Source: a virus
Reading direction: 5' to 3' (one strand)
Virus record (IMG/VR): IMGVR_UViG_3300020438_004435
Length of the DNA stretch: 64,000 nucleotides
Both the position numbers and the translations under genes were made by a program. Shown piece after piece: positions 9,001-55,304 of this stretch (its first letter is position 1; each line of letters starts with the position of its first letter). A model generated the notes under the pieces. That model did no database searches and had not been told where the DNA came from. It worked only from the letters and a program-made list of their open reading frames with translations.

Positions 9001-10519
9001 GAGCATTGTATCCTGATCGATCTAATATAGGAAATTCAGAAATCGGATCTACAAGGAATTCATTTTGAGATACTATCTGTCTAATGGTTGTACTCATTGA
9101 CGCTGGTAAAAGGTTAGATGATGATGGAACTGCAAATCTATGTAATGGTGGTGCTGAAGAGTGATTTGTTTCATGTGGATATACTCCTCTGCCTATATTT
9201 TGATTTTGATTTGCACCATAACTATATGCCACTGTTGCAGATGCTGCAGCTGCTCCTCCTGAGAATGTTGTTGTTCCATATCCATATCCATCGCCAAGCC
9301 ATGCTACACCCTCAACGCCACCAAGTGCTAATACAGTTCCTGTAACTGTAGTATTACCAGACGTTCCATTAGATGCTTGTGTGATTGTAATCCATAGATC
9401 CTTTCTATTTCCTGCTGATGCATTGTTATAGACTGCATGGAAATTGCCATTAGCATCTATATCCGCTGTTAGTGCGGAAATGATAGTTGGCCAACCTCCA
9501 GATGCAGCAATTGTGAATGTATGCGCCGTTCCAGATGTATCTGTTAGTACTAACGTCTTACCATAGAGTGCACTCAATCCATCGCCGGCGCTATGAGTAT
9601 TATAATCAAATCTTAGAATATATTCTGCGGCAGCACCATCATTCGTAGATACAGCTGGTTGATACCACTTATGGAAATTTATGGTTCCATCTACCCATTG
9701 TAAGGATGCGGTTTCAAATGCATCGCCAGTATTTTTAACATTGGAACCGATCTGTTGCGTAGTTCCATCGGATTCATAAAACGTAGTATATTCTGCATTT
9801 CGTAATATACAGGTTGCGAATTGAGATGTTCCATCATATTCATACGTTACTGATCCTTTGTTAGAACCTGTAGCGGAAGTATCATGGTAAAGAGTAGGAG
9901 CTGCCGTTGTGAATGTATTTTCCTGGCCTTCGATCGTAACATGACTCCAAGGTACAATTCTTTCTTCTACCTTTACTATAGGAGGTTCATACCAATCTAT
10001 AGGTTCATCATTTATTAAACTTGGATCAATATATATTTTTCTAGACCATCTAACATTAATCCTATCTTGGCAATCTGCAGGCAGTGGACAAAAGCAATTA
10101 TTATCTAAGACAGCTATTCCCGTAAATGTAATTATACCTGGACCTGTTGGTGTATCATCACAAACAAAGAAACAAACAGTTCTAGTTCTAGAGTCTGCAT
10201 TGGTGTTTCTTTTTATTTCATGTTTTATTGCATTACCATGAGCATCTAATACCTCCACCTGTATTTCAGATCCTGGTTTGAACATTCTAGCATTTGCTTG
10301 GAATGATACTGCATTAGAACCTATTGTGAATTTATCCTCACATTTAGTAATATTAAAGTAGTCTGCTGATGTTCTAGAAGTATCCTCAATACAAACATTG
10401 AGATCTATAAGACCCTTCTTAATTCCACCTTTACACGAATTATTAGTAAGTGTAACTGCGGATAGAATTGTTCCCTTTTTATCTGGTATGTCTCTAGGTC
10501 TTTCTCGAAATTCGGACAT
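1..10519 (-). CDS. Giant tail fibre/adhesin-like structural protein, >3,500 aa, 3'-truncated by the window edge
   Basis: ATG at 10519 with AGGAG 7 nt upstream; reads MSEFRERPRDIPDKKGTILSAV... The same frame gives sensible repeat-rich protein at 6500, 6050 and the left edge (..GTIRRSDISRLGTFLAGDGL). It is absent from the ORF track, consistent with no in-frame stop before base 1. Ser/Ala/Gly/Thr-rich fibre-like repeats (GVGIGT, ASWAGSSSYA, TGVWNGTAI). Confidence 0.85.
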   Translation of the reverse strand, partial: MSEFRERPRDIPDKKGTILSAVTLTNNSCKGGIKKGLIDLNVCIEDTSRTSADYFNITKCEDKFTIGSNAVSFQANARMFKPGSEIQVEVLDAHGNAIKHEIKRNTNADSRTRTVCFFVCDDTPTGPGIITFTGIAVLDNNCFCPLPADCQDRINVRWSRKIYIDPSLINDEPIDWYEPPIVKVEERIVPWSHVTIEGQENTFTTAAPTLYHDTSATGSNKGSVTYEYDGTSQFATCILRNAEYTTFYESDGTTQQIGSNVKNTGDAFETASLQWVDGTINFHKWYQPAVSTNDGAAAEYILRFDYNTHSAGDGLSALYGKTLVLTDTSGTAHTFTIAASGGWPTIISALTADIDANGNFHAVYNNASAGNRKDLWITITQASNGTSGNTTVTGTVLALGGVEGVAWLGDGYGYGTTTFSGGAAAASATVAYSYGANQNQNIGRGVYPHETNHSSAPPLHRFAVPSSSNLLPASMSTTIRQIVSQNEFLVDPISEFPILDRSGYNAQHIQRIGYASEGGGAGIPFVIRYEGSEGTVTTKDPDTHIAIDQSYASINIRNLKPCCSEVTHINVFIRSHHKLGYGDNSGFEFLNVMRLHPTNFMVDKDTTSYSDVSQTGHGGTQFINFGRFTNQAPLSANNILQSYWQVGSSEKNEDPSVAINNTKLIGGVKICHAGATNTINEKDETFYTFKPQYSHSLAPGSSSFFSGSTYQIKFNAYGESDPYSTGGPTDFERGNPRIDIYMSGSSFKAGFNDKGLGKRITSIETKAATEKYINNTFIFDPDNDGTGAPVFVIRRGCWHLADIELTAASGSGLTPSIMDGDLAMPIQPASDVFDFKFEYLNYALIPAKGTNSITYIYNVPFLGTDLNAIANSHANHPSQSNTTLLFTTSSVTFPPNITNIFSTGSWQHTGSMHVTGTIHATELIIGVVSKSMLFASGSSKFGDDCDDTHQFTGSVSIAGNLDITDTLCEGGGNISSSYIYARSASIGEISSSIISSSIISGSYIWGEHITGSLFGTASWAGSSSYAGTASYALHARSASWADSASQATTASYAHWAASASHAVSSSFIQTSSYAHTSSWAMTASYVSGGLGQSDIYNILNTHLTSSNIRNHGDYSGSFIFANSASFNSASITNIFNTHLTSSYIIIKKNIINRGDYSGSFIYANSASFNSASITNLTSSNFYSTNIVNRGNYSGSHIFANSASFNSASITNLTFTRASGSLYGTASWAGSSSQALTASYGRDNDWFKEGKSYADGNEADPTIDGGIYHEGTVGIGDFSSATPVRQLHITQSLADYNAKAPPVRINSLHNSPQKNIITYNSASGDVSYTELGCALDLMDKDNCCCHLHADTNIYIFIDRTSMNIIGTATATPAILTRWVITKFEADMRDKYPYWKGRIFVGEGSDDPASATLTAERWLSWMSWPAVGNQNDGGTGTGITGSMKSVRWDATGVTDEVAGTYLGSDDFAAHGVSCSAYYLENSPISASGKSDDNVIVFALVDETDAGNGNQGGGYHYRQALTGLGTDPSSAPGTLENDWENHLTTHYKADYGLFVGKAYPSYDCFSGFVYALPNSTNIDADARQNFALHVYGAIETDIVSPTKFVSFSPTTANLNAITGSNPYAKGVNTVGANSPWYTAGIYGLASQSISEKHDFPTGIAGWYNNLGSPSETSINKSGSWLHGQASMSADFFEMIDGNSIGVRVDGKTVCVNDANELFVVTSSLFDQIKRSTVTSSTIVHFTSSNIINYGPYSGSHIYANSASFNSASITNLTFTRATGSLFGTASWAGSSSYASTASYAIHAVSASWAGSASQAITASYGRDNDWYKQGKSYSDGNEADPTLDGDIYHTGKVGIGDFSTAGIDHQLAVEGTVKLGNNVANEHNITGSIHMKHTNLSILSGSGNFGIGTANPGRSIVFDNTSAHRLRVIDGDPSAVGLQIINWETSSAFTAGGGTTGGNELAARGPRAIISVNAYNSSASYGYGGTRGQSGVSLSYMPDTFEGNTSGNDYGDGGDKDSEGIRLSQEAALLSTGGNPQGSINIHARGDAGQQIRFFTGNDDARNTGGKDTETQRMTIHHDGGVGIGTHNPQRRLHVSNSVGYNTSHPIVRFETLPTAPDNTNMVVVDSNGDLYQTSKFGTTGGTSTINDDLTVLGNFSGSHIFVNSASINEVSISKTLIVGHVPDPTDTFTNHFISMSVGNISMSGWISSSNTASFGHGKFTDIRITNDTRITRDTYIGRNVYVTNAEATVDIEGSIDVNGNTNLDNTDIDGTLVVDGTNISLDSTSTLNIDNSNTTNGITIGTATANVPIKIGRGDVTTTIEGNTNIRGNVSSSHIYANSASINEVSISRTLIIGHVPDPTDTFTNNFISMSSGNVSMSGWISSSNTGSFGYGKFSDTVEATNTGSFTHTVATTVRATNVNTTNVTATTIEVGQDIDVTRNIKSNGSNINTIYSPIAGGTNIVTVGTIGTGVWNGTAIATAYIANDAIDADKIADDVINSEHIAAGSVDTEHIADNQVTLDKLAGLARGKIIYGNASGDPAALSAGANGKLLVADANGDLSWTTVSGDVTLSAGAITIAATSIEGSMLNNNIVSGLTDIGAAIAATDEFIISDAGTIKRSDISRLGTFLAGDGLAVSSGVLAVGVDDSSIEINSDAIRVKAGGIATAMIADDAVDADKLASNAVVNASVASSAAIAFTKLADLTDGNILIGNAGNEATSTTVSGDVTINGSGVTTIGATKVHGTMLNSDVAGTGLTIAGNNLDIEAAQTGITSIKHNSLILGGNSQNNTIDFGTDDKIIFDIDNVETALVHSTGLDVHGTISGSFGSFTSGSFNTLVIGSGSKPSNYGDMFVGAISMSGNITGSSSATASMGRATFTRVHTSKVVSDTTDISLDMSVGRAIYVAGSNLTAIYSPIAGNTSLVTLGTITTGVWNGTAIAHDYIGADAIDATNIADDAIEEEHIGDGEIKTAAIADDQVTYAKIQNVSATNRILGRDSAGAGVIEEISPADLVTMLGIEASATADQTKSDIDGLGITTVGTIDTGVWNGTAITHDYIGADAIDGTNIGNDVINSEHYVAASIDNEHLADNAVNTDEIADNAVTLDKMAGIARGKIIIGNSSGDPSALAAGTNGYVLTSDGTDISWAESTSATGNITGITSVKHNSLIIGGNSQNNTIDFGTDDKIIFDIDNIAKVTVGATETQISGITSGSFASYTSGSFNTLVIGSGSVPSNYGGLSLTEISASGNISSSATIYASTGSIGRVESAALKGTKIFGSGAHLDNDVNLDRGSDARGDILYRGASNYQRLAGGSANHVLIMGDADPTWNTVGTNSITDNAVTLAKMAGLARGKIIVGDSSGDPSALSVGGANTVLQSDGTDATWNTIATAMIADNAVSLAKMAGLARGKIIVGDASGDPSALAAGANGKILVADANGDLSWTTLSGDASLSAGTLTIAATSVEGSMLNNNIVSGLTDIGAAIAATDEFIISDAGTIRRSDISRLGTFLAGDGL
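6..2965. repeat. ~335-bp in-frame duplication within the giant ORF (copies ~6-340 and ~2631-2965, offset 2625 nt)
   Basis: Both copies begin ccatcacctgc(c/t)aagaatgttcctaatcttgatatatc and encode ..GKI(I)..GDP.AL.AGANGK.LVADANGDLSWTT.SGD..LSAG..TIAATS.EGSMLNNNIVSGLTDIGAAIAATDEFIISDAGTI.RSDISRLGTFLAGDG. Confidence 0.9.
3345..4060. repeat. ~190-bp in-frame duplication (copies ~3345-3535 and ~3870-4060)
   Basis: Both encode SHI(Y/F).NSASINEVSIS.TLI.GHVPDPTDTFTN.FISMS.GN.SMSGWISSSNT.SFG.GKF. Confidence 0.9.
4953..6945. repeat. Duplicated module (~4953-5275 and ~6687-6945) within the giant ORF
   Basis: Both encode SASFNSASITNLTFTRA.GSL.GTASWAGSSS..A.TASYGRDNDW.K.GKSY.DGNEADPT.DG.IYH.G.VGIGDFS. 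Confidence 0.85.
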
Positions 10520-20349: not shown

Positions 20350-23300
20350 TTATCTTATACTTAAATCACCTTCGAATCCGCCAAAATTAGTAACTAATTT
20401 ATTTGGATCAACAATATTAATTGTTACCACTGGTGATCCGTTATCTGTTTGCAAACTTTCTGCGTTAAAATCCAACCCTGATATCTTGCAACCTTCATAT
20501 CTCAGTCTTCGTTGAGCTGTTGTTCCTTCTAAATTATAATCAGATATTTCCGCTCTATGTAATGACTGACTATATGCATATTCACTCATAGGATAAACAA
20601 ATGTTCCATTACCATCATGCGTAGAACCTAATGAGGCACTAAATGATGATGAATAGAAAAATCTAGAAGACATACGAGCATGTCCACTTCCATCCTTGAA
20701 ACGTGAGTATCTTTGCGTTTCTATTATTGCACCTGTTGGTGATGCTTTCCAATCAGGTGTTTTACTTGAAGTAAATTCTCCTGTGAAATAATGACCATTA
20801 GCTAAATTGCCATAAGCAGGTGCACCAGTTCCAGCAAATTTTCTTTTCCATTGTGTATAACTATATTTAGAGGATGACACAGATAAACCGAGCGAAATAG
20901 TATCACTAACTTCAATTGATAAACTACCAACCTTATCTCCTTCATGAGATAAAACTTTTGTTTGCTGTCCTCTTTGTTTTATTGCCTCAAAACCTTTTCT
21001 CTTTTGAGTAGGTAATTCATTTCCTATTAATATAAATGGATCATCATTGGTTCCAATAGTTCCAACTATTTCTACACTATTTTGAACAAATGTATCATGA
21101 GTTTGTTTTTGATGTCTATCTACCTGACCAAATTGAGGTTCTGCCTTAAATGTTTTTAATGTAGCATATTGTCTTTCTCTTTTAGGTTCTATCTTAACTG
21201 GATTTGCCTTTGGAGTTTTTTGTGATAAGCTAGCTGATAATACAGGAGTATCTATTTGTGGCCCAATTGCTTGAACCTGTGGTTTAGGAATGGTTGGTAA
21301 GGTAGGAGCTTTAATTTTCTTAAAATCCTCTGGCTTACGAATAATCTGTTGAGTCTTACCGCTTCCTAATACTCTTATTTTTCTTGGTGGTGTTTTAGAT
21401 CTTTCCAACACATGTGGTTCAATTACAATACCTACATCAGCGTTAGCTCTTGCTGGTAGCATTTGCTTGATCATAGTAAATAAAGACATATCATAATTTT
21501 TTAATATGTTTAGATATGCTTGTGAATCATTTTCCTTATTGGTATATTTTTTGAAATATTTTTTTGCAAATGATTTCAAATCAGGGTAGTCTATAAAATG
21601 TCTATGTCTTGGATCTCCAATATAATCATCTAAATTTATTCCACCTACATGATTAAATATATCGGTATTGGTTAAATCTGTTGGCGAAAAATAAACACCC
21701 ATTTCATTAGTGTCTAAAGAATATTCATCACCTGTAGCTCTTACCGCTCTACCATCAACATGTAATTCTTTTATCTTTTTCTGATTTGTCTGAACCCTAA
21801 TCTTATCACTAGTATACATGTTAGGACCAATTTCAGGAGTATCAGTATAATGTCTATCATTAACAACCTTATAATTAATTGTATTAGGCCCATTTTGTAA
21901 GGTTCCTGAAATCGGATATGATCCAGCTGCATCCCATGTTCCCCATCTTTGATCCGGTTGAGATGAAAATACTTCTGGAGAACTACCTGTTCTATTTGAT
22001 CCTGAATAATGAACTACTGAATCATTTAATCTAAGACGTACTAGTAAATCATCATAGGATGATGTTTCATTATTACCATTATACATATGAGGAGCTAATA
22101 CATGTTGATTAAAAGTAGATTCGGATAGAGGCATAGCCCAATATCTAAAATCAGCAACGCTTCCTGAAAATAATTGACCAAATACTGGATCGGAATAAGG
22201 TGACTTATACATTTCAACCGTAGCTGGTGCAACTCCTGCAGCTGATGAAGTAATCCATCCTCCAAGATAAGCTTGAGTACCAATTGTTCCAGATGACCAT
22301 GAATTATTTATACTAGATGAAAATCCTGTTCCTGACATCAATTGATCACTTCCAGTTACTGATAAACTTGATGTAGCTATTTGATCAATTGTTCCATAGT
22401 TAGCTCTTTTCATCATTACTTCATATGTGAATTTTGATGATGTATGATATTGTCCATATTTCCATGGCTTATCAGTAGCATGTCTATTTAATACAATTGA
22501 ACACCATCCTTCACCTTCCGTTTCATTTGATTCGTCAAATATTTTAATTTTATTTGTTGATGATGAAACATATCCATCTGAACTAGATACTACAAATTTA
22601 ACATATCCAAATTCAGTAAGGCCTTCTATGCCTGCAGGATATGAAAATGTAGATGATTGGCTTCTATGTAAAACCAATCCCATTCTATTTCCAACTTGCC
22701 ATAATGATTGGCTTTCTTCTGTTGGTATTCCTCTACCAGTATACGTTCTAGGATTAAATCTAAATTCTACTGCATTAGGATAAACGGCAGATGATGTTAC
22801 ATATCCTATTGTTTTTTGATGTGGCTTCCAAGGAGTAGATATAGATTCTGAAGCTTGTAAATTTAATACATAAGTAAAATCATCTGTAATATATTTTGCA
22901 GATTGGTCTCCTTTAATTGAGGAACCATATTCCCTAATTCTTAATATACTAGATGGAACTCCATAACAATTTATTAATGCTCTAATACCTCTAGAGGTTC
23001 CTTTCGATTTTAATAAGAAAGGTAGATTATTAATTATACGTCTCCATACTTCTGATGTTCTTTCTTTGGATGACATTGTTTGCAGTGAACCAGTAGCTTG
23101 TTGATGGAATCCTGTTTCATTTTTTCCAAGTAGATAATACCATAATTCTTGATTAGGATCTCCATCTACTAAATTCATACCATATGATTTTGCTACATGA
23201 TAAAGTATATCTTCATGTAATCCTTTTTTCTTTTCATAAAATTCATCATGTTTCCTATTAGATCTATCAGATAGATGTTTAATATAAGTCCATAGTAGAT

Positions 23301-27049: not shown

Positions 27050-28936
27050 CTATATATTTGTTACTCTACCCTTGATATCCGATTTAGGATATTTTACTTC
27101 AAAGATACTTGGATCAAGTGCAGGATATACTACGCCATCTCGAGTTGCTGTTTTTATATCATATACATTACCAGAATACCCTTGCTCCTTATCAAAGAAA
27201 TTAATAATATTAGCTGTTGGAACGGATTGTACTCCTTTAACACTTATTAATAAACTTAATATATCTGATAATATAACCGGTTCATTTATTTGCCATCTAT
27301 CAATATTAAAATGATCAACCATTTCATCAATACATTTTAATAATACATCATTTGAATTAAAACCTGGTAAGGTTACTATTTCAAAATCTAATCCTATATT
27401 AATAATGAAAGCATCTTTTAATGTGACAGAATCTGTTAATATTCTAAATGGAGTAAGATAATTTTTTATATTTTCCTTGGTTGCTTCATTATTGGTAATA
27501 AGTTTTTTATTAGCATCATATCCTAATGTATACATATTAATTGCTAATGGGTTATTTAGTTTATGTAATTTAGTATGATTATTTAATTGTTCATCTTGAG
27601 CTACATATGCCTTTGCTACCGAGCCAAACCTAGATGGCATTGTCATTACCCTAATCATATAATCATCACGAGTTACACATCTATTTTGAGCATTGAAATA
27701 TGCTAATGCATTTCTTCGAATCTCCTCAACAGTTTCTCCTTGTCTACCCCCTTGAGCAGCACCAGGATTTATTAATGCTATAGAACTTTTGGTATTATTA
27801 AATAAGGTTTCATCTAATCCATTTCCTGTAGATGATATATTAAGAGTATCTATTTTAGTAATAGTTTGAGAAGAAACATTATCTTCTATTCCACCTCCAT
27901 AAGTATAATGAACAGTAATCGTTGTATTGCCAGGAGCCTGGCCATATGTTCTTGTATGCATGAAATTAGTTGGATCGATAGCTTTATCTAATTGTCCTGC
28001 TACACCTGGTAATATAGAACCTACATTATTTGGATTTGGTATTATCTCTTCATCCGCTTGTATATTACCACCAGCTCCAAATTCTATAATCATAGCTCCG
28101 TCTTCTCTTACTCTAGTAATATATCTTTTAGATGTTCTTTTTTGTTTTAATAAATAAGGAGTCTCATGATTGTATTGGGTTAAAGACGGATCATTAAATT
28201 GATTATTAGTTATTTCTTTATATATCGTATCCTGAGCTAAATAAGGTACTGAATGATATTCATTATCATTGGCATCAGTAACTTTAATTATTTCAATTAT
28301 ATTTTTTCTACCCAAAGCTAATTGTAAAAATGGCTTAGCCGTACCTACACTAAATGTTTCACTAGCTACCTTTCCAGATTCAAATTTAATATTTTTCTTT
28401 AATAAATAATATGTAGCTTCTCCAGTAGTATCATCCGTCGTAAAGATTGAAGTGTCCGTTAAATCATTAGATCCTGAATAACTAAAATCAATAGGTTGTT
28501 TATTTCTAAATACGGATCCATTTTCTGCTATTACTGTAGCTCCTGAATCTATAGCCATTGAATATCTATAATCCGGTCTATTAGTATTACCTGCTCCTAT
28601 AGCTGGTACGGTTTGAAATACATCTACATTTACTGCTGCAGCAGTAGTCTGTCTAGGTATATATCCCAATGCTTGAGCCATTGCTGTTACGTTTCGCTTT
28701 TCAGTAGCATAAGGTAACATCGATTCCTTAAATTGGTTATCTATATAGTAACTTAATAAGTCACCTACATAAGCGGATGTTTCCAAAAACATCATTCCTG
28801 GTGATGATTCATTAAAATCATTTACGGTATTAGGATAATATGTTTTTGCAAATTCAATTAAATTTTCACGAAGACTATTAAAGTCCTTACCTAAATAATT
28901 GATATCCTTTACTATTTTATTATTAATATCTGGCAT
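27050..28936 (-). CDS. Baseplate wedge subunit (T4 gp6-like)
   Basis: N-terminus YLGKDFNSLRENL...DFNESSPGMMFLETSAYVGDLLSYYID; AQNRCVTRDDY motif. Confidence 0.85.
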   Translation of the reverse strand: MPDINNKIVKDINYLGKDFNSLRENLIEFAKTYYPNTVNDFNESSPGMMFLETSAYVGDLLSYYIDNQFKESMLPYATEKRNVTAMAQALGYIPRQTTAAAVNVDVFQTVPAIGAGNTNRPDYRYSMAIDSGATVIAENGSVFRNKQPIDFSYSGSNDLTDTSIFTTDDTTGEATYYLLKKNIKFESGKVASETFSVGTAKPFLQLALGRKNIIEIIKVTDANDNEYHSVPYLAQDTIYKEITNNQFNDPSLTQYNHETPYLLKQKRTSKRYITRVREDGAMIIEFGAGGNIQADEEIIPNPNNVGSILPGVAGQLDKAIDPTNFMHTRTYGQAPGNTTITVHYTYGGGIEDNVSSQTITKIDTLNISSTGNGLDETLFNNTKSSIALINPGAAQGGRQGETVEEIRRNALAYFNAQNRCVTRDDYMIRVMTMPSRFGSVAKAYVAQDEQLNNHTKLHKLNNPLAINMYTLGYDANKKLITNNEATKENIKNYLTPFRILTDSVTLKDAFIINIGLDFEIVTLPGFNSNDVLLKCIDEMVDHFNIDRWQINEPVILSDILSLLISVKGVQSVPTANIINFFDKEQGYSGNVYDIKTATRDGVVYPALDPSIFEVKYPKSDIKGRVTNI

Positions 28937-38731: not shown

Positions 38732-39316
38732 TTAATAGTGAATTATTGGAGTAGTAAATACACCAGGAACCGATACGGATCCTAAAAGCATAAGAATAGG
38801 TGGATCAGTACAACATGTTCCATTAGCCCAACCTCCTGTAGTACAATCATCCAACACTTCCATAGATATAGATAACTGATCTGGTGTGCAAGTAGGACCG
38901 ACTGTTACCTGAAAGCTCATGGTAAATGGTCCAGTGGAACTTGTTCCCCATCCAGCTGTTCCTGAGTTTATGAATCTCCATCCTGGACCAAAATTATATC
39001 CACCAGGATAAGTATGTTGTAAATCCCATACCCAATTACCAATAGCTCCTGCAGGATTACCAGGTGCAGTAATAGGTGTTAAATTTGTAAACCCTGGTCC
39101 TAGGATAATTTGAAATGCATGGATCCAATTTATATTAATTCCATTAAATGATTGAAGGGTATATGTAAGTGTAATTACCTGGCCAGGTATAAAAGTCCCA
39201 ATAGGTAGTGTGGGTGATGAGATTGGTGAATATGAATGGGTTTGAGTTCCAAGGCATGGTTGTGCAACAGCATTAAAACTAAATAGGATACATATTATAA
39301 TTATTATTTTTTTCAT
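38732..39316 (-). CDS. Secreted beta-rich protein with signal peptide
   Basis: MKKIIIIICILFSFNAVAQ signal ending in AQ (Bacteroidota style); Gly/Pro/Cys-rich; C-terminus FTTPIIHY. Confidence 0.7.
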   Translation of the reverse strand: MKKIIIIICILFSFNAVAQPCLGTQTHSYSPISSPTLPIGTFIPGQVITLTYTLQSFNGININWIHAFQIILGPGFTNLTPITAPGNPAGAIGNWVWDLQHTYPGGYNFGPGWRFINSGTAGWGTSSTGPFTMSFQVTVGPTCTPDQLSISMEVLDDCTTGGWANGTCCTDPPILMLLGSVSVPGVFTTPIIHY

Positions 39317-39843
39317 CTTACTAATGTTATAGGTCTTACAAATCTATTATTTTTTATAAAAACATTTATGGTATAAACGCCTATAGGATTATCCTTTCCA
39401 TCCCATGGCATATTACTATTGGCTTCAAATATTCGTTGTCCCCATCTATTATAGATTGCAATATATTCTATATCATTAACCGATCTACCACCTACATTAT
39501 ACTGTTCATTAATACCATCACCATTAGGAGTAAAAGAACTAGGAAAGAATAAAGTTGCATAAGGACAAGGAGATATAGAGACCTGATATTCTGATGTATC
39601 TCCATCGCACCCAAACCTAGTCGTATAAACTGATATAAGGTAGTCTCCTGCACTATCTGGCCATTGCACGGTGATAGTGTTAGATGATGCGGAAATGATG
39701 TCTCCGTGCGAGATTGACCAATAGTATATTTTATCAGCTTCATAATCAACCTGATAGGATTGTGGTTGTATAATTGAACAATCGTTATAGGTTTCTTGAG
39801 CTAATAAATGAAGGGGTAGTAATATTAATACCCACCATCTCAT
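39313..39843 (-). CDS. PKD-like + gliding-motility-associated C-terminal (T9SS type B CTD) protein
   Basis: Signal MRWWVLILLPLHLLAQ; C-terminal LFFPSSFTPNGDGINE...IYNRWGQRIFE...WDGK...PIGVY. Confidence 0.85.
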   Translation of the reverse strand: MRWWVLILLPLHLLAQETYNDCSIIQPQSYQVDYEADKIYYWSISHGDIISASSNTITVQWPDSAGDYLISVYTTRFGCDGDTSEYQVSISPCPYATLFFPSSFTPNGDGINEQYNVGGRSVNDIEYIAIYNRWGQRIFEANSNMPWDGKDNPIGVYTINVFIKNNRFVRPITLVR

Positions 39844-39844
39844 A

Positions 39845-40384
39845 TTAAAAATGTTGGATCGGACCAGTGATAGGTCCATTATTTACGGTTACATTTATTG
39901 TAGTATTACATCCAGCCATAGAATAGGTTAATACATAATTACCAACTCCAGTTGATGGTTGAAAATTATTACCTACTACACCTGTACCAGACCAAGTCCC
40001 TCCTGCAGGGCTACCTACTAATGGTGTTGTTGGATCACCAGGACAAAATGGTCCTATGGTATTACCTGATAGATCTAAAATAAATACATCTAAGAGTTGT
40101 GGTGTGCCAGGACAACCAGTCGCATTAGATTCTATTACTTCTACTGCATTAGGATAAAGACCAGATACACCTCCCCAATCTACTGTAATAGAACTTGTGG
40201 TTTGGCCTGTTTGTAAAATACCACCACCACCTGTTATTGTCCATTGATAGGTTGATGTAGGTGTGACAGCAACATAATATTGTTCTCCTGTTGCATTAAC
40301 ACATACTGTGTCTGGGTTAATTGTTGTTTGTGATATTGCAGATATCGATAATGATACCAACAAGATTGTTAGAAATTTTTTCAT
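39845..40384 (-). CDS. Secreted PKD-like/Ig-like protein
   Basis: Signal MKKFLTILLVSLSISAISQ; TYQWTITGG...ITVDWG; AGGTWSGTGV; C-terminus ITGPIQHF. Confidence 0.75.
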   Translation of the reverse strand: MKKFLTILLVSLSISAISQTTINPDTVCVNATGEQYYVAVTPTSTYQWTITGGGGILQTGQTTSSITVDWGGVSGLYPNAVEVIESNATGCPGTPQLLDVFILDLSGNTIGPFCPGDPTTPLVGSPAGGTWSGTGVVGNNFQPSTGVGNYVLTYSMAGCNTTINVTVNNGPITGPIQHF

Positions 40385-40396
40385 AATACATCTCCT

Positions 40397-41284
40397 TTAT
40401 TTATTTGGCATTTCGAATATATAAGTATGAACCAGATTGCCTGCCTGATTTACTTTCTTACGATATTCGCAATTGCCTACGTTTGATTTATTTACTATTT
40501 TTTCCTTAAGGTAATCTAATCGTGATTTGTTTAGAGAACATATAATTAACATACCATCTACCGTAGTACATCTAACCATTCCATCATTTAGGTTTTCCAG
40601 CAATGCACTATTAAACATGTTCTGTACAAATTCATAATCCAATTCAGAATTTGGAACTACACCAAATGCCTTTAATGTATTAATGTTTGGAGACCATGGT
40701 TTGAATTTAGGTATTAATCTTTTACCATTGATAAGTCGTTCCATATAAAAATCAATATTTTCAGGATCAAGAGTGTCGAACCACTTTTCATATTTAGAAT
40801 AATCATTCATAAATATTTCTTCCTTATCTATCGCTCTTAATTTTTCCCATACTAGTGTAGCTATTATTTCATTAGCTTCACCAATCATTTGGGAGTACTG
40901 CATTTGCTGATCATCATTCAATGAGTCGAACCATTCATCAAAATTAAAATTATCATTTTTTAGTTCACTCGGATCAAATAATTTATCTGAATGAGACGTC
41001 CATTGTCCTGACTTAGTAATATCATCTAATCTTGGAAATGAATCATCTAATTCCTTTTTATAATCTTCTGGTGTTATTCTCCTTATAGGAGGTTCAGGTT
41101 TTATTATTTCCTGTCGTTGAAAATCAATACTCCTATCTGATAATATTTTATTACGAATTTCATCATCTAACATATCTAAATAATTGAACATTAATTCATC
41201 ATCACAATTATAGTATTCAAGGTTGTATTTTTTACCTTCAACCTTAACACGCTTCTTTAGATATGGTGCAACAATTTTCTTCAT
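40397..41284 (-). CDS. Acidic hypothetical protein (start refined to MKKIVAPY)
   Basis: The ORF-track extension to 41383 overlaps the tmRNA; ATG at 41284. Confidence 0.7.
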   Translation of the reverse strand: MKKIVAPYLKKRVKVEGKKYNLEYYNCDDELMFNYLDMLDDEIRNKILSDRSIDFQRQEIIKPEPPIRRITPEDYKKELDDSFPRLDDITKSGQWTSHSDKLFDPSELKNDNFNFDEWFDSLNDDQQMQYSQMIGEANEIIATLVWEKLRAIDKEEIFMNDYSKYEKWFDTLDPENIDFYMERLINGKRLIPKFKPWSPNINTLKAFGVVPNSELDYEFVQNMFNSALLENLNDGMVRCTTVDGMLIICSLNKSRLDYLKEKIVNKSNVGNCEYRKKVNQAGNLVHTYIFEMPNK

Positions 41285-41304: not shown

Positions 41305-41518
41305 CCAACCACCACCGGGCTTTAACGACTTGCCCTATTAATGCCGTTGGGTCAGGGTGCCTAAGCCGCCATCGCCATTTCAACTTGTTCGCCAGTTACG
41401 CGTCGACCTTCCTATACCCTTATCATTGTGTCAAATCCAGTCACCCCCATGAAGTTAAATAATTTAGTGGAGGTGGAGGGTATCGAACCCTCGTCCATCA
41501 ATGCAGCTAATATAAGTC
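41305..41518 (-). ncRNA. ssrA: Circularly permuted (two-piece) tmRNA; tag (A)GEQVEMAMAA*
   Basis: Acceptor piece first: GGAC + T-arm GAGGG-TTCGATA-CCCTC (41492-41476) + CACCTCC-A (41475-41468). Then a 19-nt spacer, then the coding piece GGGGGTG-ACTGGATTTGAC from 41448. Perfect 7-bp acceptor stem with G3.U70. TAACT precedes resume codon GGC at 41393; TAG ends at 41361. The 3' end is approximate. Confidence 0.92.
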
Positions 41519-41801
41519 AAACAGTCGTTTCCTTATCAAGTATTGATTCTTTAATCTGAACCAACCTTGCACATCTTTCATACGCTTCAATTGAAATATA
41601 ATATTCAATCATCGTATCAATAGTATCTATAGAGTTTGCATTAGATAATAACCAAGAACCTGGTTTAATATCTTCTATCTTTTTTTTGCCATTAAGAAAC
41701 CTAAACGTATTGTTAACAGCTAAATGCAAAAGCTTGTCATCAGTGCTATGTATAGGATCTATATTCATAAACCCGTCAACAACCCTTTGGACAGTGCGCA
41801 A
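41517..41801 (-). CDS. Small protein with C-terminal UVR (UvrB/UvrC)-like motif
   Basis: MIEYYISIEAYERCARLVQIKE; its stop codon overlaps the start of the tmRNA acceptor piece. Confidence 0.65.
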   Translation of the reverse strand: MRTVQRVVDGFMNIDPIHSTDDKLLHLAVNNTFRFLNGKKKIEDIKPGSWLLSNANSIDTIDTMIEYYISIEAYERCARLVQIKESILDKETTV

Positions 41802-45875: not shown

Positions 45876-47972
45876 TTATTTAGTTAGAAATAAATTATTT
45901 AATGTCTTTGCTAATGGCACTAATGAAGATACATCAACATTAGCTGATGACTTACCATACATCTTTCTAAATGTACTACCTACCTCATCTCTCTTATATC
46001 CTGAAATGAAATAACTAAGAACCTTAATACCTTTCTTTCTCATTTTATCAATCTCACCTTTCGTATGAGCTGCAGCTTCATCACCTGCATAATAAAATCC
46101 TTTAGGATTACAATAAGGTTCTCCATCAGAGAAATTAATAAAATAACTTTCTCTATCCCCAGAAGCTTTTACTAAATGATTTTGAATAGCTTCGAATGTT
46201 AAACCTTCAGGTGTTAAAGAAGAAGGTGTAATATACTTAAACAAACTTCTAATCTTATTAAATTTATCTACTCTAGAATCATAAGCAATCATCACACAAG
46301 GTATTCCTTCCTTACCTGTTGTTGTTCTATATGATAATTGTATATCTAAATTATCCACCATCGAAGCTGCCTTAGCAATAGCAACCACTGCTGTCTGACT
46401 AGAATACCATTTATCTCCACTCATCGAACCACTAGCATCAATACTAATATGAACATTAGCAGGAGTATATTTATCATTCATTACCTGCTGAAATACTCTC
46501 TCCGCACCATAACCTAATGAAGCGATTAATCTCTTATCAATCTTACCAGAATCTAATCTAGAAAATTTAGTATTTCTTTCTTCACTTCTTAATTTTAATT
46601 TCTTACCGAGCATCGTACCTAATCTAATACCCTTTACTATGGCTTCCGCATTTGCTTCCTTTCTCCATCTATGATATTCATGACTAATCAAAAAATCATA
46701 ACCACCACTATCAATTAACCCTTTTGTTAATTTATTAATAACAATACATTCTGTATCAGGCTTTTTATTTTTACTCACCCATCTATTAAAATACGTGGAT
46801 CCTACCTTTTTAATTTCCGAACCCGACTCTTCTAAAGCCTTCATTTTCTTTTGATCCGTTTTATTCATTTTTGTTTTCTTTATCTCACCACGAATAAAAT
46901 CTTCCTGCTTCTTAATAGCATTAGCTAATTTTCTATTCTGAGGAGGAGACATAGGACCATTACCAACCGAACTTGAACCACCAGACTTCTTAGCTTCTTC
47001 TCCTTCAGCCTTCGAACCATCATCATCACTATCGCCTTCAATAGATCCTTTAGGACTTGAACATCCTAAATTATCACCTTGACAATCCGAATCTTCTCCT
47101 CTATTATCATCATTGGATTCTTCATCCCCTGTATTATCATCTTTCTGAAATAAATCAGGTGCAGGTATATTTTCCTCTACTTCATAAAATATTTCCAATG
47201 CAATCTTAAGAGCATCTTCTGTATTTTTTATCTTACCAATATTTTTAAGATCCATTATTTTCCAAATCTTTCTTAATCCAGGTAATGCATCAAGATCTCT
47301 ATTCTCATTTGTAATATTACAAATTCTAAACATATAAGAATCCCAATCAAGATCTCTCTTCTCCGAAGACATAAGACCTTTATCAATTATCTTAGCATTA
47401 AAATACTTTTCATATAATGCATGATAATAACCTTTATAACCAGGAGCAGACTTAAAAATAAAATTATCAATTCTTCTATCCTCTACTATATTTAATAATG
47501 GCTTAACATGATCTCTAATATATCTAAATGTTTTATCCGTTTGATATTGATGATCATTTCTTAAATGATCAAAATACTTTTTAGCAATATTATTTACCAA
47601 TTCGATTTCATCATTAAGAATATCATCCTTCCTAAGAAAATCCTTTAACACTTGAAAATCTGTTAACTTAATATGAGATCCCTCATGTAAAGCTAAACCA
47701 ACAGCAGCATCAAAATCTTTATCTTTTAATGAAGCAGATATATTAACCGCTTTACCATCCGTATAAGAATCTGAACCACTAAAATATACAGGAACATTTT
47801 TACCTGTAACTATATTAACGAAATTAGCTATTGCTCTTCGATAACCAGCAAGCTTAATTAAATCTTGTGTCTTATCCTTTACCTCTAAACCAGTAAGGAT
47901 ATCTACATTATTATTATCGAATAGGCTATCTCCTAGCCACCATGATGAATTTGAATTGTTATTGTATTGCAT
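45876..47972 (-). CDS. vWA-domain protein with N-terminal HExxH putative metallopeptidase (CobT-like AAA partner)
   Basis: ALHEGSHI; NIVEDRRID; acidic linker; MIDAS ISIDASGSMS; INFSDGEP. Confidence 0.85.
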   Translation of the reverse strand: MQYNNNSNSSWWLGDSLFDNNNVDILTGLEVKDKTQDLIKLAGYRRAIANFVNIVTGKNVPVYFSGSDSYTDGKAVNISASLKDKDFDAAVGLALHEGSHIKLTDFQVLKDFLRKDDILNDEIELVNNIAKKYFDHLRNDHQYQTDKTFRYIRDHVKPLLNIVEDRRIDNFIFKSAPGYKGYYHALYEKYFNAKIIDKGLMSSEKRDLDWDSYMFRICNITNENRDLDALPGLRKIWKIMDLKNIGKIKNTEDALKIALEIFYEVEENIPAPDLFQKDDNTGDEESNDDNRGEDSDCQGDNLGCSSPKGSIEGDSDDDGSKAEGEEAKKSGGSSSVGNGPMSPPQNRKLANAIKKQEDFIRGEIKKTKMNKTDQKKMKALEESGSEIKKVGSTYFNRWVSKNKKPDTECIVINKLTKGLIDSGGYDFLISHEYHRWRKEANAEAIVKGIRLGTMLGKKLKLRSEERNTKFSRLDSGKIDKRLIASLGYGAERVFQQVMNDKYTPANVHISIDASGSMSGDKWYSSQTAVVAIAKAASMVDNLDIQLSYRTTTGKEGIPCVMIAYDSRVDKFNKIRSLFKYITPSSLTPEGLTFEAIQNHLVKASGDRESYFINFSDGEPYCNPKGFYYAGDEAAAHTKGEIDKMRKKGIKVLSYFISGYKRDEVGSTFRKMYGKSSANVDVSSLVPLAKTLNNLFLTK

Positions 47973-54134: not shown

Positions 54135-55304
54135 TTAGCTGGCTTTTGTGTACTCCATTGAATCATCATTTTCTTCCACATTGAATAGATCCTCTTCTGT
54201 ACCATCATCACAGAACTTCTGTACGATTTGCTTAACGAATGTTCTTTCACTATCTATCCCACCGTCATTACTATACTGTGGATACATCGTTATCTCAGCG
54301 GCTTCTTCCAACTTAAATCCATCGAATAATAAGCCCGCTACTTCAACCGATGTTCTTGTGCTCACAGGTGATGACAATCGAGATTCTTCTTTATTACATT
54401 CCTGTCTTGTCATTGCCGTGATCTGAGCCACATTATCTAATGCCTTCTTATTAACCAGCGGAAACATGTATTGTAATAGATCACTCTCTTCCGTTGAAGA
54501 TAATAGATCCATTTCAATGATTGTGAACCTATCCATCAAGGCTTTATCCATTGTACGTGTAGATGTGTATTCATTCCCTATATTAGCCGTAGCTATGAAT
54601 GTAACACCATCAGCTACCTTGATTGTAGCTTGATCTTCCGCTTCATCTAATCTTAAGTATCTTTGACCACTATCTAATACAGTCATTAGTATATTCCAGG
54701 CATCGGGGTGTGCTCTAGATAACTCATCTAGCAATATTACAGCATTCTCTTGTTGTATAGCCTTTACAAACAGAGCTTCAGAGAAAGACGTTCCCGTCTC
54801 CTTATCAAATGTAACATTACCTATTAAGGTAGCCCTTGGATCTTGTGTAGCTCCAAGATTGAAATAATAATCAGGTCTATCTAAAGCATTGACTAATGCC
54901 TTCGCAGCCATGGTCTTACCACAACCAGCTGGTCCTGTCATCATTATATTCTTACCTCTCACCCCTGAGCGAATAAGATACTTCCATTTTAACTCATTCA
55001 TTTTCAAGCCTTTAGGCTTAAGATCATAACTACTATGAATCATATTCATAACAGCTAAATGTTCTTCTGGCATTTCTGAATCTGGTGTAGGCGTAGCCAC
55101 CTTATTAGCTTCAGCTTCATATTCCTTCATAGGAACCTGCTTCCACTTACCACCATCAAACCATAACGCATTACCGTTGTTTAATACTTTAGCCTTCATT
55201 TGGCTATACAATGTTCCTGGTACCTTTGTTACTACGTTACCATTAACATCCTTTACTATCGACTTTGTTGTCGAGAATTTTTCTACCTTGTAATATCCGA
55301 TCAT
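54135..55304 (-). CDS. AAA+ ATPase, MoxR/CbbQ/NorQ/CobS-type
   Basis: Walker A GPAGCGKT; Walker B ILLDELSRA; FIATANIG; ALMDRF. Confidence 0.92.
   Translation of the reverse strand: MIGYYKVEKFSTTKSIVKDVNGNVVTKVPGTLYSQMKAKVLNNGNALWFDGGKWKQVPMKEYEAEANKVATPTPDSEMPEEHLAVMNMIHSSYDLKPKGLKMNELKWKYLIRSGVRGKNIMMTGPAGCGKTMAAKALVNALDRPDYYFNLGATQDPRATLIGNVTFDKETGTSFSEALFVKAIQQENAVILLDELSRAHPDAWNILMTVLDSGQRYLRLDEAEDQATIKVADGVTFIATANIGNEYTSTRTMDKALMDRFTIIEMDLLSSTEESDLLQYMFPLVNKKALDNVAQITAMTRQECNKEESRLSSPVSTRTSVEVAGLLFDGFKLEEAAEITMYPQYSNDGGIDSERTFVKQIVQKFCDDGTEEDLFNVEENDDSMEYTKAS

What the first reader, a model, noticed from the sequence alone, without database searches (positions are those of the whole stretch)
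41305..41518. Phage-encoded, circularly permuted, minimal two-piece tmRNA with a novel tag
Seen on the minus strand in this order. (1) The normal tmRNA 3' half comes FIRST: GACTTATATTAGCTGCATTGATGGAC, a T-arm (GAGGG/CCCTC, loop TTCGATA), CACCTCC and discriminator A at 41468; CCA is not encoded (CTA). (2) A 19-nt AT-rich intervening segment, 41467-41449. (3) The normal 5' end GGGGGTG-ACTGGATTTGAC at 41448. The halves form a perfect 7-bp acceptor stem with the G3.U70 alanine identity pair and a P2-like helix (CAATG/CATTG; GGTC/GACT). The resume codon GGC follows TAACT and encodes GEQVEMAMAA-TAG. An H-type pseudoknot follows (AACGGC/GTCGTT with GGGC/GCCC, 41348-41317). Only 11 nt separate P2 from the resume codon, which starts 55 nt from the 5' end versus nt 90 in E. 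coli, so PK1 appears absent. Established: two-piece tmRNAs occur in Alphaproteobacteria, some Betaproteobacteria and marine picocyanobacteria, and some phages carry one-piece tmRNAs; Bacteroidota tags start with G (e.g. GENNYALAA). Inference: an independent permutation in a phage lineage, supplying its own ribosome rescue with a tag that keeps the C-terminal AA degron.
Basis: partly seen in the sequence, partly recalled or inferred. Interest (0 to 1): 0.92.

Follow-up and report, generated by a model that had tools for sequence, protein, structure and literature searches.

The report
Phage two-piece tmRNA, Bacteroidota type
A large marine phage, probably of Bacteroidota, carries a real circularly permuted (two-piece) ribosome-rescue RNA gene; phage two-piece tmRNAs are already known, but this widespread family looks like an undescribed Bacteroidota-type lineage without the usual first pseudoknot.

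Summary
The feature is real. Rfam's permuted-tmRNA model hits 41528-41361(-) at 58 bits (cut-off 47). At least 51 IMG/VR viral contigs carry full-length homologs. In a 39-sequence alignment every helix covaries, G3.U70 is invariant, and the tag ends in AMAA with synonymous third-position changes. PK1 is absent family-wide: only 10-14 nt separate P2 from the GGC resume codon. One 3' H-type pseudoknot is supported.

The gene therefore starts about 10 nt earlier and overlaps the upstream ORF's stop codon.

New here: the resume codon sits in the loop of a covarying 5-bp hairpin, a trait shared by most PK1-less permuted tmRNAs I examined.

The novelty was overstated. Two-piece tmRNAs in phages are published (Buchholz 2022), and two isolated Bacteroidota phages (Maribacter phage Panino, Chryseobacterium phage MA9V-3) carry similar annotated genes.

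This family fails the alpha and beta membership tests. It shares the Gly resume codon, UAACU context, GE... tag and UUUGACA motif with Bacteroidota one-piece tmRNAs. An independent permutation is plausible (about 0.55) but unproven, because cyanophage S-CAM1 also lacks PK1 and has the hairpin. Processing, charging and tagging are untested.

The parts
41305..41528 (-). Whole permuted tmRNA gene (precursor): acceptor piece, spacer, coding piece. The 3' end is approximate.
   Evidence: Rfam RF04321 41528-41361, 58 bits. Family profile 119-232 bits in 51 viral loci. Pseudoknot and U-rich tail read.
41468..41528 (-). Acceptor piece: P2 3'-side strands, T arm, acceptor 3' strand and discriminator A 41468. 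CCA is not encoded (CUA follows).
   Evidence: Among homologs the three bases after the discriminator are CUA, CAA or CCA.
41523..41527 (-). P2c strand CGACU, pairs with GGUCG 41404-41408
   Evidence: Alignment columns 34-39 with 209-214. 15 sequences carry a double change at one pair: GACC/GGUC, GAUC/GAUC, GAAC/GUUC. RNAfold uses the same pairing.
41404..41408 (-). P2c strand GGUCG on the coding piece
41511..41516 (-). P2b strand CUUAUA, pairs with UAUAGG 41411-41416
   Evidence: Helix 2: 99.1% paired, 3 pairs with double changes. Recovered independently by RNAalifold.
41411..41416 (-). P2b strand UAUAGG on the coding piece
41499..41503 (-). P2a strand CAUUG, pairs with CAAUG 41424-41428
   Evidence: Helix 3: 4 pairs with double changes. 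Also.
41424..41428 (-). P2a strand CAAUG on the coding piece
41476..41492 (-). T arm: GAGGG / UUCGAUA / CCCUC
   Evidence: The stem covaries (GC to CG in 14 sequences, AU to CG in 15), 100% paired.
41469..41475 (-). Acceptor stem 3' strand CACCUCC
   Evidence: 100% paired; one pair switches C-G to U-A in 17 sequences.
41449..41467 (-). Intervening segment, presumably removed during processing
   Evidence: Variable in sequence and length among homologs: 15-21 nt, 68 nt in L001/L002
41442..41448 (-). Acceptor stem 5' strand GGGGGUG and 5' end of the coding piece. G3 (41446) pairs with U 41471.
   Evidence: The U-G pair at columns 92/168 is invariant in 39 of 39 sequences.
41381..41398 (-). Resume-codon hairpin: UAACU 41398-41394 pairs with AGUUG 41385-41381. 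The 8-nt loop GGCGAACA begins with the resume codon.
   Evidence: Predicted by RNAalifold. 98.5% paired against 4-56% when slid; 7 cells with double changes. Equivalent hairpins with other sequences occur in 7 of 8 PK1-less permuted tag types.
41361..41393 (-). Tag reading frame GGC...GCU UAG, encoding GEQVEMAMAA plus stop
   Evidence: Same or near-same tag in 35 homologs. AMAA is invariant with synonymous third-position changes, and all three stop codons are used.
41317..41348 (-). H-type pseudoknot: S1 AACGGC/GUCGUU, S2 GGGC/GCCC
   Evidence: Helices 8 and 9: S1 has 3 pairs and S2 has 5 pairs with double changes (for example GGGC/GCCC against GAAGC/GCUUC).
41517..41801 (-). Upstream 94-aa ORF of unknown function. 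Its TGA stop (41519-41517) lies inside the acceptor piece.
   Evidence: The ORF end is conserved in L002. No Pfam hit.
40397..41284 (-). Downstream 295-aa gene of unknown function (ATG at 41284, AGGA at 41293-41290)
   Evidence: 74% identical relatives lie next to the same tmRNA in L001/L002. No PHROG or Pfam hit.

Best explanation
This is a functional, circularly permuted ssrA gene carried by a large marine myophage whose host is most likely a Bacteroidota bacterium.

Shown by sequence and comparison: the gene order is P2 3' strands, T arm, acceptor 3' strand, spacer, acceptor 5' strand, P2 5' strands, tag frame, pseudoknot. All helices covary, G3.U70 is invariant, and the tag frame evolves like a coding sequence.

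Inferred mechanism: the precursor is cut 5' of G 41448 by RNase P and trimmed after A 41468. The host CCA-adding enzyme completes the 3' end. This yields an acceptor piece of about 61 nt and a coding piece of about 145 nt, held together by the 7-bp acceptor stem and about 16 bp of P2a-c. Host AlaRS charges the RNA through G3.U70. Host SmpB (none is found in the phage) and EF-Tu deliver it to stalled ribosomes. Translation resumes at GGC 41393, adds GEQVEMAMAA and stops at UAG. The AMAA end targets the product to host proteases.

PK1 is missing. The P2c helix and a small hairpin that displays the resume codon in its loop probably take over PK1's scaffolding role.

The likely benefit is keeping ribosomes free while the infection degrades host mRNA. 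This is speculative.

Lineage (inferred, about 0.55): a separate permutation of a Bacteroidota-type tmRNA, found so far only in viral DNA.
For: - Rfam RF04321 scores 58 bits against a cut-off of 47.
- 51 IMG/VR loci match the family profile at 119-232 bits.
- ARAGORN of the 41 distinct homolog sequences permuted, with tags GEQVE[MLY]AMAA.
- Covariation: 91.5% of cells paired against 36-46% when slid; 27 of 48 pairs with double changes; 0 of 500 shuffles reach the observed values. RNAalifold recovers the same helices independently.
- Coding-type constraint on the tag: AMAA is invariant in 35 of 35 sequences with synonymous changes. Four distant members keep 36-37-codon frames that end in AMAA.
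- The spacer from P2 to the resume codon is 10-14 nt in all members.
- Resume hairpin.
- A stable hairpin can replace PK1 in E. coli (PMC3968760, citing Tanner 2006).
- Phage context: baseplate wedge, CobT/CobS-like genes, single-strand gene order.
- Host: a T9SS CHU_C sorting domain and a PKD_6 domain in neighbouring genes; Flavobacterium phage immuto is among the nearest isolates.
- Bacteroidota signatures: G-start tags, the UAACU|GGCGAA context and GGUUUUGACAG occur in Bacteroidota one-piece tmRNAs. In a nearest-neighbour test, Bacteroidota score 16.8 against 10.1 for other phyla, p = 8.5e-10. In profile scoring of the unselected 5' half, the top three are all Bacteroidota (20, 17.7 and 15.2 bits), against cyano 7.2, beta 1.7-8.0 and alpha none.
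Against:
- ARAGORN does not call this copy.
- The MFE of the precursor is no better than shuffles, z = 0.54.
- The window's copy lacks the promoter-like box GATATTTAT that most homologs carry and abuts an upstream ORF.
- No SmpB was found in the window or in four related viral records. This fits reliance on the host but leaves the partner unidentified.
- The closest isolate by protein is annotated as a Microcystis phage.
- Cyanophage S-CAM1's tmRNA is also short (63 nt to the resume codon) and has a resume hairpin, so independent origin is not secure.
- The bacterial comparison set was chosen by a shared 3' TLD 29-mer. Absolute scores for the 5' half are low.
Confidence: 0.85

Rival explanations
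1. Same function, different history. The family descends from one of the known two-piece lineages (most plausibly the marine cyanobacterial/cyanophage type) by horizontal transfer between marine phages. Its resume codon and tag were later adapted to a Bacteroidota host. On this reading it is not a fourth permutation event.
For: - S-CAM1's cyano-type tmRNA has only 63 nt from the 5' end to the resume codon, a normal T loop, no encoded CCA, and a 5-bp hairpin around the resume codon, like this family.
- The nearest isolate by baseplate and CobT-like proteins is annotated as Microcystis phage Mel-JY01.
- Melnitz shows that phages move two-piece tmRNAs between host classes (PMC9004378).
Against: - S-CAM1 scores 38.7 bits against the family profile, below in-silico permuted Bacteroidota tmRNAs (median 60). 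In the unselected 5' half it scores 7.2, against 15-20 for the best Bacteroidota.
- S-CAM1 uses a GCA resume codon, an ANNIV...VAA-type tag, UUUCGAC rather than UUUGACA, a 4-nt spacer, and a local hairpin where this family has P2c.
- No clan tmRNA model (alpha, beta, cyano or standard) reached its gathering score on the window.
Confidence: 0.3
2. The RNA acts mainly as a decoy. Its tRNA-like domain titrates host SmpB and blocks host trans-translation, as proposed for the TLD-only gene of mycobacteriophage DS6A. On this reading tagging is incidental.
For: No phage SmpB was found. A TLD-only molecule inhibits tmRNA in E. coli (PMC4131195, PMC11915505).
Against: The tag frame, resume context, stop codon and downstream pseudoknot are all conserved and covary. 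AMAA is invariant with synonymous changes, and the long-tag relatives keep 36-37 codons in frame. A decoy would not need any of these.
Confidence: 0.05
3. This is a non-functional relic: a captured 3' ssrA fragment from an integration site next to an unrelated G-rich segment, or a decaying pseudogene.
For: Phages often carry ssrA fragments from imprecise excision (PMC9004378). ARAGORN is silent on the window.
Against: - The two acceptor strands covary with each other (C-G to U-A in 17 sequences), as do P2a-c across the two halves.
- At least 51 diverged copies keep every element.
- The family-specific pattern has no match in 185,579 species-representative bacterial genomes, so there is no obvious attB source.
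Confidence: 0.02

Closest known systems
Permuted tmRNAs of isolated Bacteroidota phages: Maribacter phage Panino (PP540027.1, tmRNA 27557-27889) and Chryseobacterium phage MA9V-3 (PV245944.1, tmRNA 22766-23124)
   Same: Permuted order. RF04321 scores 62.2 and 64.7 bits. Gly resume codon (GGU, GGA). 60-62 nt from the 5' end to the resume codon, so no PK1. A 6-7-bp hairpin encloses the resume codon. GGGGGUGA...UUYGACAG 5' domain. CCA not encoded.
   Different: Only the tRNA-like domain aligns to this family's profile (46-50 bits). Tags are unrelated and longer (GKVMNVSFAPTVRQFA, GNVIDINKYVAKLEVAA). Spacers are longer (38 and 59 nt). In GenBank they are annotated simply as SsrA, and I found no paper discussing them.
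Published phage two-piece tmRNAs: OM43 phage Melnitz, Pelagibacter phage HTVC008M, cyanophage S-CAM1, Caulobacter phages (Buchholz et al. 2022, PMC9004378)
   Same: Phage-borne, circularly permuted, mostly marine, detected by ARAGORN and Rfam (RF04321 scores 84-99 bits).
   Different: These follow the alpha or cyano host lineages. HTVC008M has the aberrant T loop UGCAAUA, AACAGAA in the 3' pseudoknot, 75 nt to the resume codon and tag ANFNEYALAA. S-CAM1 has a GCA resume codon and a cyanobacterial-type tag. The present family has a Gly resume codon, a GE...AMAA tag and Bacteroidota-like motifs.
Betaproteobacterial two-piece tmRNA (Rfam RF01850)
   Same: Permuted order, normal T loop, and the best of the old clan models on the window (44.8 bits).
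   Different: True members score 169-296 bits, keep 83-85 nt (PK1) before a GCN resume codon, and encode ANDE[HRN]FA[IL]AA. RF01850 also gives 30-50 bits on ordinary one-piece tmRNAs, so 44.8 bits carries no information.
Bacteroidota one-piece tmRNA (for example the Flavobacteriales MAG L161, Spirosomataceae L216, Bacteroidales L225)
   Same: GGC resume codon preceded by UAACU. Tags GENNFALAA, GESNYAMAA and GENNYALAA. GGGGGYGACYGGUUUUGACAG 5' end. The 3' end ...GGACGAGGGUUCGAnnCCCUCCRCCUCCAC, mostly without CCA. Highest scores against the family profile.
   Different: One piece of 355-412 nt, with the resume codon at nt 94-103 (PK1 present) and further downstream pseudoknots. No hairpin around the resume codon (by eye).
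Cellulophaga phage Calle_1 / phi38:1 one-piece phage tmRNA
   Same: Phage of marine Flavobacteriia. Nearly the same tRNA-like domain (94% over 34 nt).
   Different: Standard order, 360 nt, GCA resume codon at nt 113, a 22-aa tag ending VGV.

Membership tests
tmRNA (ssrA), any form | 7-bp acceptor stem with the G3.U70 alanine identity pair and discriminator A | tested here: met
   GGGGGUG 41448-41442 pairs with CACCUCC 41475-41469; A at 41468. G.U is invariant in 39 of 39; the stem is 100% paired.
tmRNA (ssrA), any form | T arm with a T-psi-C-type loop, and no anticodon arm | tested here: met
   GAGGG/UUCGAUA/CCCUC; the stem covaries.
tmRNA (ssrA), any form | Long P2 helix joining the tRNA-like and mRNA-like parts | tested here: met
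   P2a, P2b and P2c total 16 bp in the window and all covary.
tmRNA (ssrA), any form | Short internal reading frame with a resume codon, a hydrophobic C-terminal A-A end and a stop codon | tested here: met
   GEQVEMAMAA plus stop. AMAA is invariant, with synonymous variation.
tmRNA (ssrA), any form | PK1 between P2 and the resume codon (typical, required in E. coli unless replaced by a hairpin) | tested here: not met
   Only 11 nt between GGUC and GGC in the window (10 nt after the full P2c strand GGUCG), and 10-14 nt in the family. A 5-bp hairpin around the resume codon is present instead.
tmRNA (ssrA), any form | Alanylation, SmpB and EF-Tu binding, and trans-translation activity | not testable with these tools
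   No SmpB gene in the window or in four related viral records.
Permuted (two-piece) tmRNA, Rfam RF04321 | Score at or above the curated gathering score, with the 3' tRNA half upstream of the 5' half | tested here: met
   58 bits against 47, full model 1-213.
Permuted (two-piece) tmRNA, Rfam RF04321 | Precursor is cleaved into two base-paired RNAs | not testable with these tools
   Inferred only, from the gene order and the variable spacer.
Alphaproteobacterial two-piece tmRNA (RF01849) | Aberrant T loop (GGCRGUA type, from my own knowledge; UGCAAUA seen in HTVC008M) and AACAGAA in the 3' pseudoknot loop | tested here: not met
   The window's T loop is UUCGAUA and the gene contains no AACAGAA. 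HTVC008M shows both alpha traits. No clan model reached its gathering score.
Betaproteobacterial two-piece tmRNA (RF01850) | Gathering score of 84 bits; PK1 retained; GCN resume codon; ANDE.FA.AA tag | tested here: not met
   44.8 bits. True members score 169-296 bits, have 83-85 nt to the resume codon and use an Ala resume codon.
Cyanobacterial two-piece tmRNA (RF01851) | Gathering score of the family; Ala resume codon; ANNIV...VAA-type tag | tested here: inconclusive
   Not listed at gathering, and scored below the beta model. Tag and resume codon differ from S-CAM1, but the short PK1-less layout and the resume hairpin are shared. Only one cyano-type reference was examined.

The most novel reading that the evidence does not exclude
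A fourth, independent circular permutation of ssrA arose from a Bacteroidota-type tmRNA. As far as searched, it exists only in phage genomes, whose hosts keep a one-piece tmRNA. It is stripped to one pseudoknot. PK1 is functionally replaced by an extra P2 segment formed with the very 5' end of the acceptor piece, and by a hairpin that presents the resume codon in its loop. That solution recurs in other PK1-less two-piece tmRNAs.
Probability: 0.5. Interest if true: 0.72.

Novelty: new variant of a known kind. Interest (0 to 1): 0.52.

Why it matters
Two-piece tmRNAs are textbook examples of RNA gene permutation and are credited to three bacterial lineages. This family would add a lineage that lives in viruses of a phylum whose cells use the one-piece form. 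That makes the number and origin of permutation events a question testable with viral data.

It is also a natural minimal tmRNA of about 205 nt in two pieces, with no PK1 and one pseudoknot, and it has abundant sequence variation. That makes it useful for asking what PK1 really does, and whether a hairpin around the resume codon can set the frame.

Its frequency is notable: 51 of 119 viral loci fetched here, in contigs with 28-35% G+C. This suggests that topping up ribosome rescue is a common strategy of large marine phages.

Practically, ARAGORN misses some copies, and the old Rfam beta model gives misleading sub-threshold hits.

Tried and rejected
- ARAGORN on the window gave 0 genes. This is a false negative, since it calls most homologs.
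- blastn of 2 kb against INPHARED phages found no match. The tmRNA alone gave only 34-nt T-arm/acceptor hits.
- No whole genome is held for the window.
- The isolates nearest by protein (Flavobacterium phage immuto, Microcystis phage Mel-JY01, huge phage LR756508) have no RF04321 hit over the cut-off.
- A family-specific pattern found 0 hits in 185,579 species genomes.
- A shared 3' TLD 29-mer occurs in many phyla, so the T arm and acceptor alone do not indicate lineage.
- I considered beta-lineage membership because RF01850 was the best clan hit. I rejected it after the control search.
- An outer helix ACC/GGU enclosing the pseudoknot is only 69% paired, so I do not claim it.
- Thermodynamic stability gave z = 0.54, which is uninformative.
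- The motif ATATTTATA is not enriched in the window (12 found, 9.5 expected). Sigma-70 and terminator scans near the gene showed nothing above shuffles.
- SmpB was not found in the window by tblastn or phmmer with one Bacteroidota SmpB. PF01668 was not found in four related viral records.
- The papers by Sharkady & Williams 2004 and Gaudin 2002 are not held.
- Two accession guesses for Cellulophaga phage phi4:1, listed as 'Permuted' by Buchholz, hit other phages, so phi4:1 was not examined.
Full report
**Observation.** On the minus strand the region reads, in order:
- P2 3'-side strands
- a T arm (GAGGG 41492-41488, loop UUCGAUA, CCCUC 41480-41476)
- the acceptor 3' strand CACCUCC 41475-41469, discriminator A 41468, then CUA
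- a 19-nt A/U-rich spacer (41467-41449)
- GGGGGUG 41448-41442 followed by ACUGGAUUUGAC
- P2 5'-side strands
- UAACU and the frame GGC...GCU UAG (41393-41361), encoding GEQVEMAMAA
- an H-type pseudoknot at 41348-41317

The two G/C-rich strands form a perfect 7-bp stem with G3.U70. Rfam 15's merged permuted-tmRNA model RF04321 matches 41528-41361 at 58 bits (gathering score 47, E = 1.1e-8 for the window). ARAGORN finds nothing in the window.

**Family and covariation.** A search with the downstream protein gave two syntenic loci.
- blastn and an nhmmer profile show that 51 of these loci carry full-length relatives of this gene, at 73-89% identity and 119-232 bits.
- ARAGORN of the 41 distinct homolog sequences 'permuted'. 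Tags are GEQVEMAMAA (the commonest), GEQVELAMAA, GAQVEMAMAA, GEHVEMAMAA and others.
- On a MAFFT alignment of 39 sequences (A1), my hand-drawn structure has 91.5% of cells paired, against 36-46% when partners are slid. 27 of 48 pairs have changes on both sides, and no shuffle of 500 reaches any of the five measures.
- Each helix contributes: P2c, P2b, P2a, T stem, acceptor stem (one pair switches C-G to U-A in 17 sequences), a hairpin holding the stop codon (absent from the window's short variant), and both pseudoknot stems. G3.U70 is invariant.
- RNAalifold, run without my structure, recovers P2a-c, the T arm, the acceptor stem and the stop hairpin.
- The tag behaves as coding sequence. A-M-A-A is invariant in 35 of 35 ten-residue tags, while its Ala codons vary at the third position and all three stop codons occur. 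Four distant members keep 36-37 codons in frame and still end in AMAA.

**Correction of one detail.** That GACU overlaps CUUAUA 41516-41511, the P2b strand, which pairs with UAUAGG 41416-41411 and is 99% paired with compensatory changes. By alignment, the outer helix in the window is CGACU 41527-41523 with GGUCG 41408-41404. This matches Rfam's alignment and the RNAfold MFE. The gene thus starts near 41528. The TGA stop of the upstream 94-aa ORF (41519-41517) lies inside the acceptor piece.

Most homologs have a conserved box GATATTTAT a few bases upstream of P2c, which could be a promoter. The window and L001/L002 have the ORF there instead.

**Missing PK1 and a new hairpin.** Only 10-14 nt separate P2c from the resume codon in every member, and 55-60 nt precede the resume codon. 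There is no room for PK1.

RNAalifold also predicts a 5-bp hairpin, UAACU 41398-41394 with AGUUG 41385-41381, whose loop GGCGAACA starts with the resume codon. It is 98.5% paired, against 4-56% when slid. The closing pair changes U-A to A-U in three sequences and to C-G in three others. These represent few independent events.

I then checked all ARAGORN-called permuted tmRNAs in hand. A 5-7-bp hairpin around the resume codon, built from different sequences, is present in 7 of 8 tag types with 56-63 nt before the resume codon. It is present in 3 of 17 types with 75-95 nt (Fisher p = 0.0017). A review records that a stable hairpin can replace PK1 in E. coli and that two-piece tmRNAs have fewer pseudoknots (PMC3968760). 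My inference is that P2c plus this hairpin stand in for PK1.

**Context and host.**
- All long ORFs of the window are on the minus strand and G+C is about 32%.
- A baseplate wedge protein, a CobT-like protein and a CobS/AAA protein have PHROG hits.
- Two genes 1-2 kb downstream carry a T9SS CHU_C sorting domain (40.9 bits, cut-off 27) and a PKD_6 domain. Type IX secretion is a Bacteroidota trait (my own knowledge).
- The nearest isolates by protein are Microcystis phage Mel-JY01 (47%), the huge phage LR756508, and Flavobacterium phage immuto (39%). None has a permuted tmRNA over the cut-off.
- Earlier unchecked notes of this scan on the same genome mention a T9SS-cargo/TonB-receptor operon, which agrees with this host assignment.
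- No SmpB is found in the window or in four related viral records, one of them estimated 80% complete. The RNA would have to use the host's SmpB.

**What is already known.**
- Buchholz et al. 2022 found 53 two-piece tmRNAs among isolate phages, mostly marine. They assigned them to the alpha, beta and cyano lineages of their hosts, and their table lists Cellulophaga phage phi4:1 as 'Permuted' (PMC9004378).
- The 2025 tmRNA database counts 79 phage sequences. It also counts 18 alpha-type, 23 beta-type and 7 cyano-type permuted hits in Bacteroidota genomes, without comment (PMC11915505).
- Among isolates, I found that Maribacter phage Panino and Chryseobacterium phage MA9V-3 carry permuted genes annotated as SsrA. 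They score 62.2 and 64.7 bits with RF04321, use Gly resume codons, have 60-62 nt before the resume codon, and have the resume hairpin.
- IMG/VR holds many other permuted types: 99 ARAGORN calls and more than 25 tag types.
- No held paper contains the tag or describes a Bacteroidota-type permuted tmRNA.

**Lineage.**
- Alpha: excluded. The window has a normal T loop and no AACAGAA, whereas HTVC008M shows both alpha traits.
- Beta: the 44.8-bit hit to RF01850 means nothing. In 141 Burkholderiales genomes the model gives 30-50 bits on ordinary tmRNAs. True two-piece members score 169-296 bits, keep 83-85 nt before a GCN resume codon, and encode ANDE.FA.AA.
- Bacteroidota one-piece tmRNAs, taken from a multi-phylum sample sharing the 3' TLD 29-mer, share with the phage family the GGC resume codon, the UAACU context, GE... 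tags, GGUUUUGACAG and the usual lack of encoded CCA. They are the nearest neighbours in the 5' TLD plus resume region (p = 8.5e-10). They also score highest against the family profile after in-silico permutation (median 60 against 47 bits). In the 5' half, which played no part in sampling, the top three are all Bacteroidota, above the cyano, beta and alpha references.
- Against independence: S-CAM1's cyano-type gene is also PK1-less with a resume hairpin, and I had a single cyano reference.

I put an independent, Bacteroidota-derived permutation at about 0.55. The family-specific pattern has no match in 185,579 species-representative genomes, so for now the form is known only from viral DNA.

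**Verdict.** The gene is a real, very probably functional, phage-borne two-piece tmRNA gene. The kind is known and standard tools detect it, so the headline novelty falls. The specific architecture (Bacteroidota-type, no PK1, P2c formed with the 5' end of the acceptor piece, resume codon in a hairpin loop, one pseudoknot) and its abundance in marine viral contigs are, as far as I could find, undescribed.

Locus L257 was not used.

Noticed in passing
L011:1620-1980, L013:1780-2260(-), L084:3566-4025, L119:9912-10400: A distant branch of the same family keeps the GGC resume codon but has 36-37-codon tag frames (for example GKQVNTTIASIF...KEQVFAMAA) that still end in AMAA. ARAGORN mis-calls their tags.
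   Followed up: partly
A1 columns 18-35 (for example L005:9990-10010, L034, L075); absent at window 41529-41548: A conserved box GATATTTAT(A) lies a few bases upstream of P2c in most homologs and may be a phage promoter placing the transcript start at P2c. The window and L001/L002 have an ORF end there instead. The motif ATATTTATA is not enriched in the window (12 found, 9.5 expected), though several minus-strand copies sit just upstream of gene starts (37575, 38698, 55354).
   Followed up: partly
IMG/VR loci L003-L119; L128, L129, L269: Permuted tmRNAs are very diverse in viral contigs (99 ARAGORN calls, more than 25 tag types). A hairpin enclosing the resume codon goes with the absence of PK1: 7 of 8 short types have it, against 3 of 17 long types.
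   Followed up: partly
window 39313-40384 (-): Two small phage genes carry a T9SS CHU_C sorting domain (39313-39879) and a PKD_6 domain (39845-40384). A phage protein with a host secretion signal is a host indicator for Bacteroidota.
   Followed up: no
window 2-10519 (-): An open frame of at least 3,506 aa runs off the window end. ORFs of 1,060, 1,041 and 1,496 aa follow it. Most large ORFs have no PHROG hit.
   Followed up: no
window 45876-47972 and 54135-55304 (-): A CobT-like (VWA) protein and a CobS-like AAA ATPase, a pair common in large marine phages. The nearest relatives of the CobT-like protein are in LR756508 and Microcystis phage Mel-JY01.
   Followed up: no
G006-G148 (Burkholderiales genomes): Rfam RF01850 (beta_tmRNA) gives full-model sub-threshold hits of 30-50 bits on ordinary tmRNA loci in 124 of 141 genomes. 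Sub-threshold beta hits should not be read as lineage evidence.
   Followed up: yes
L128:495-975 (Maribacter phage Panino): Panino's permuted tmRNA annotation overlaps annotated tRNA-Asp and tRNA-Thr genes and a small reverse-strand CDS inside a tRNA array. The GenBank boundaries are probably too wide.
   Followed up: no
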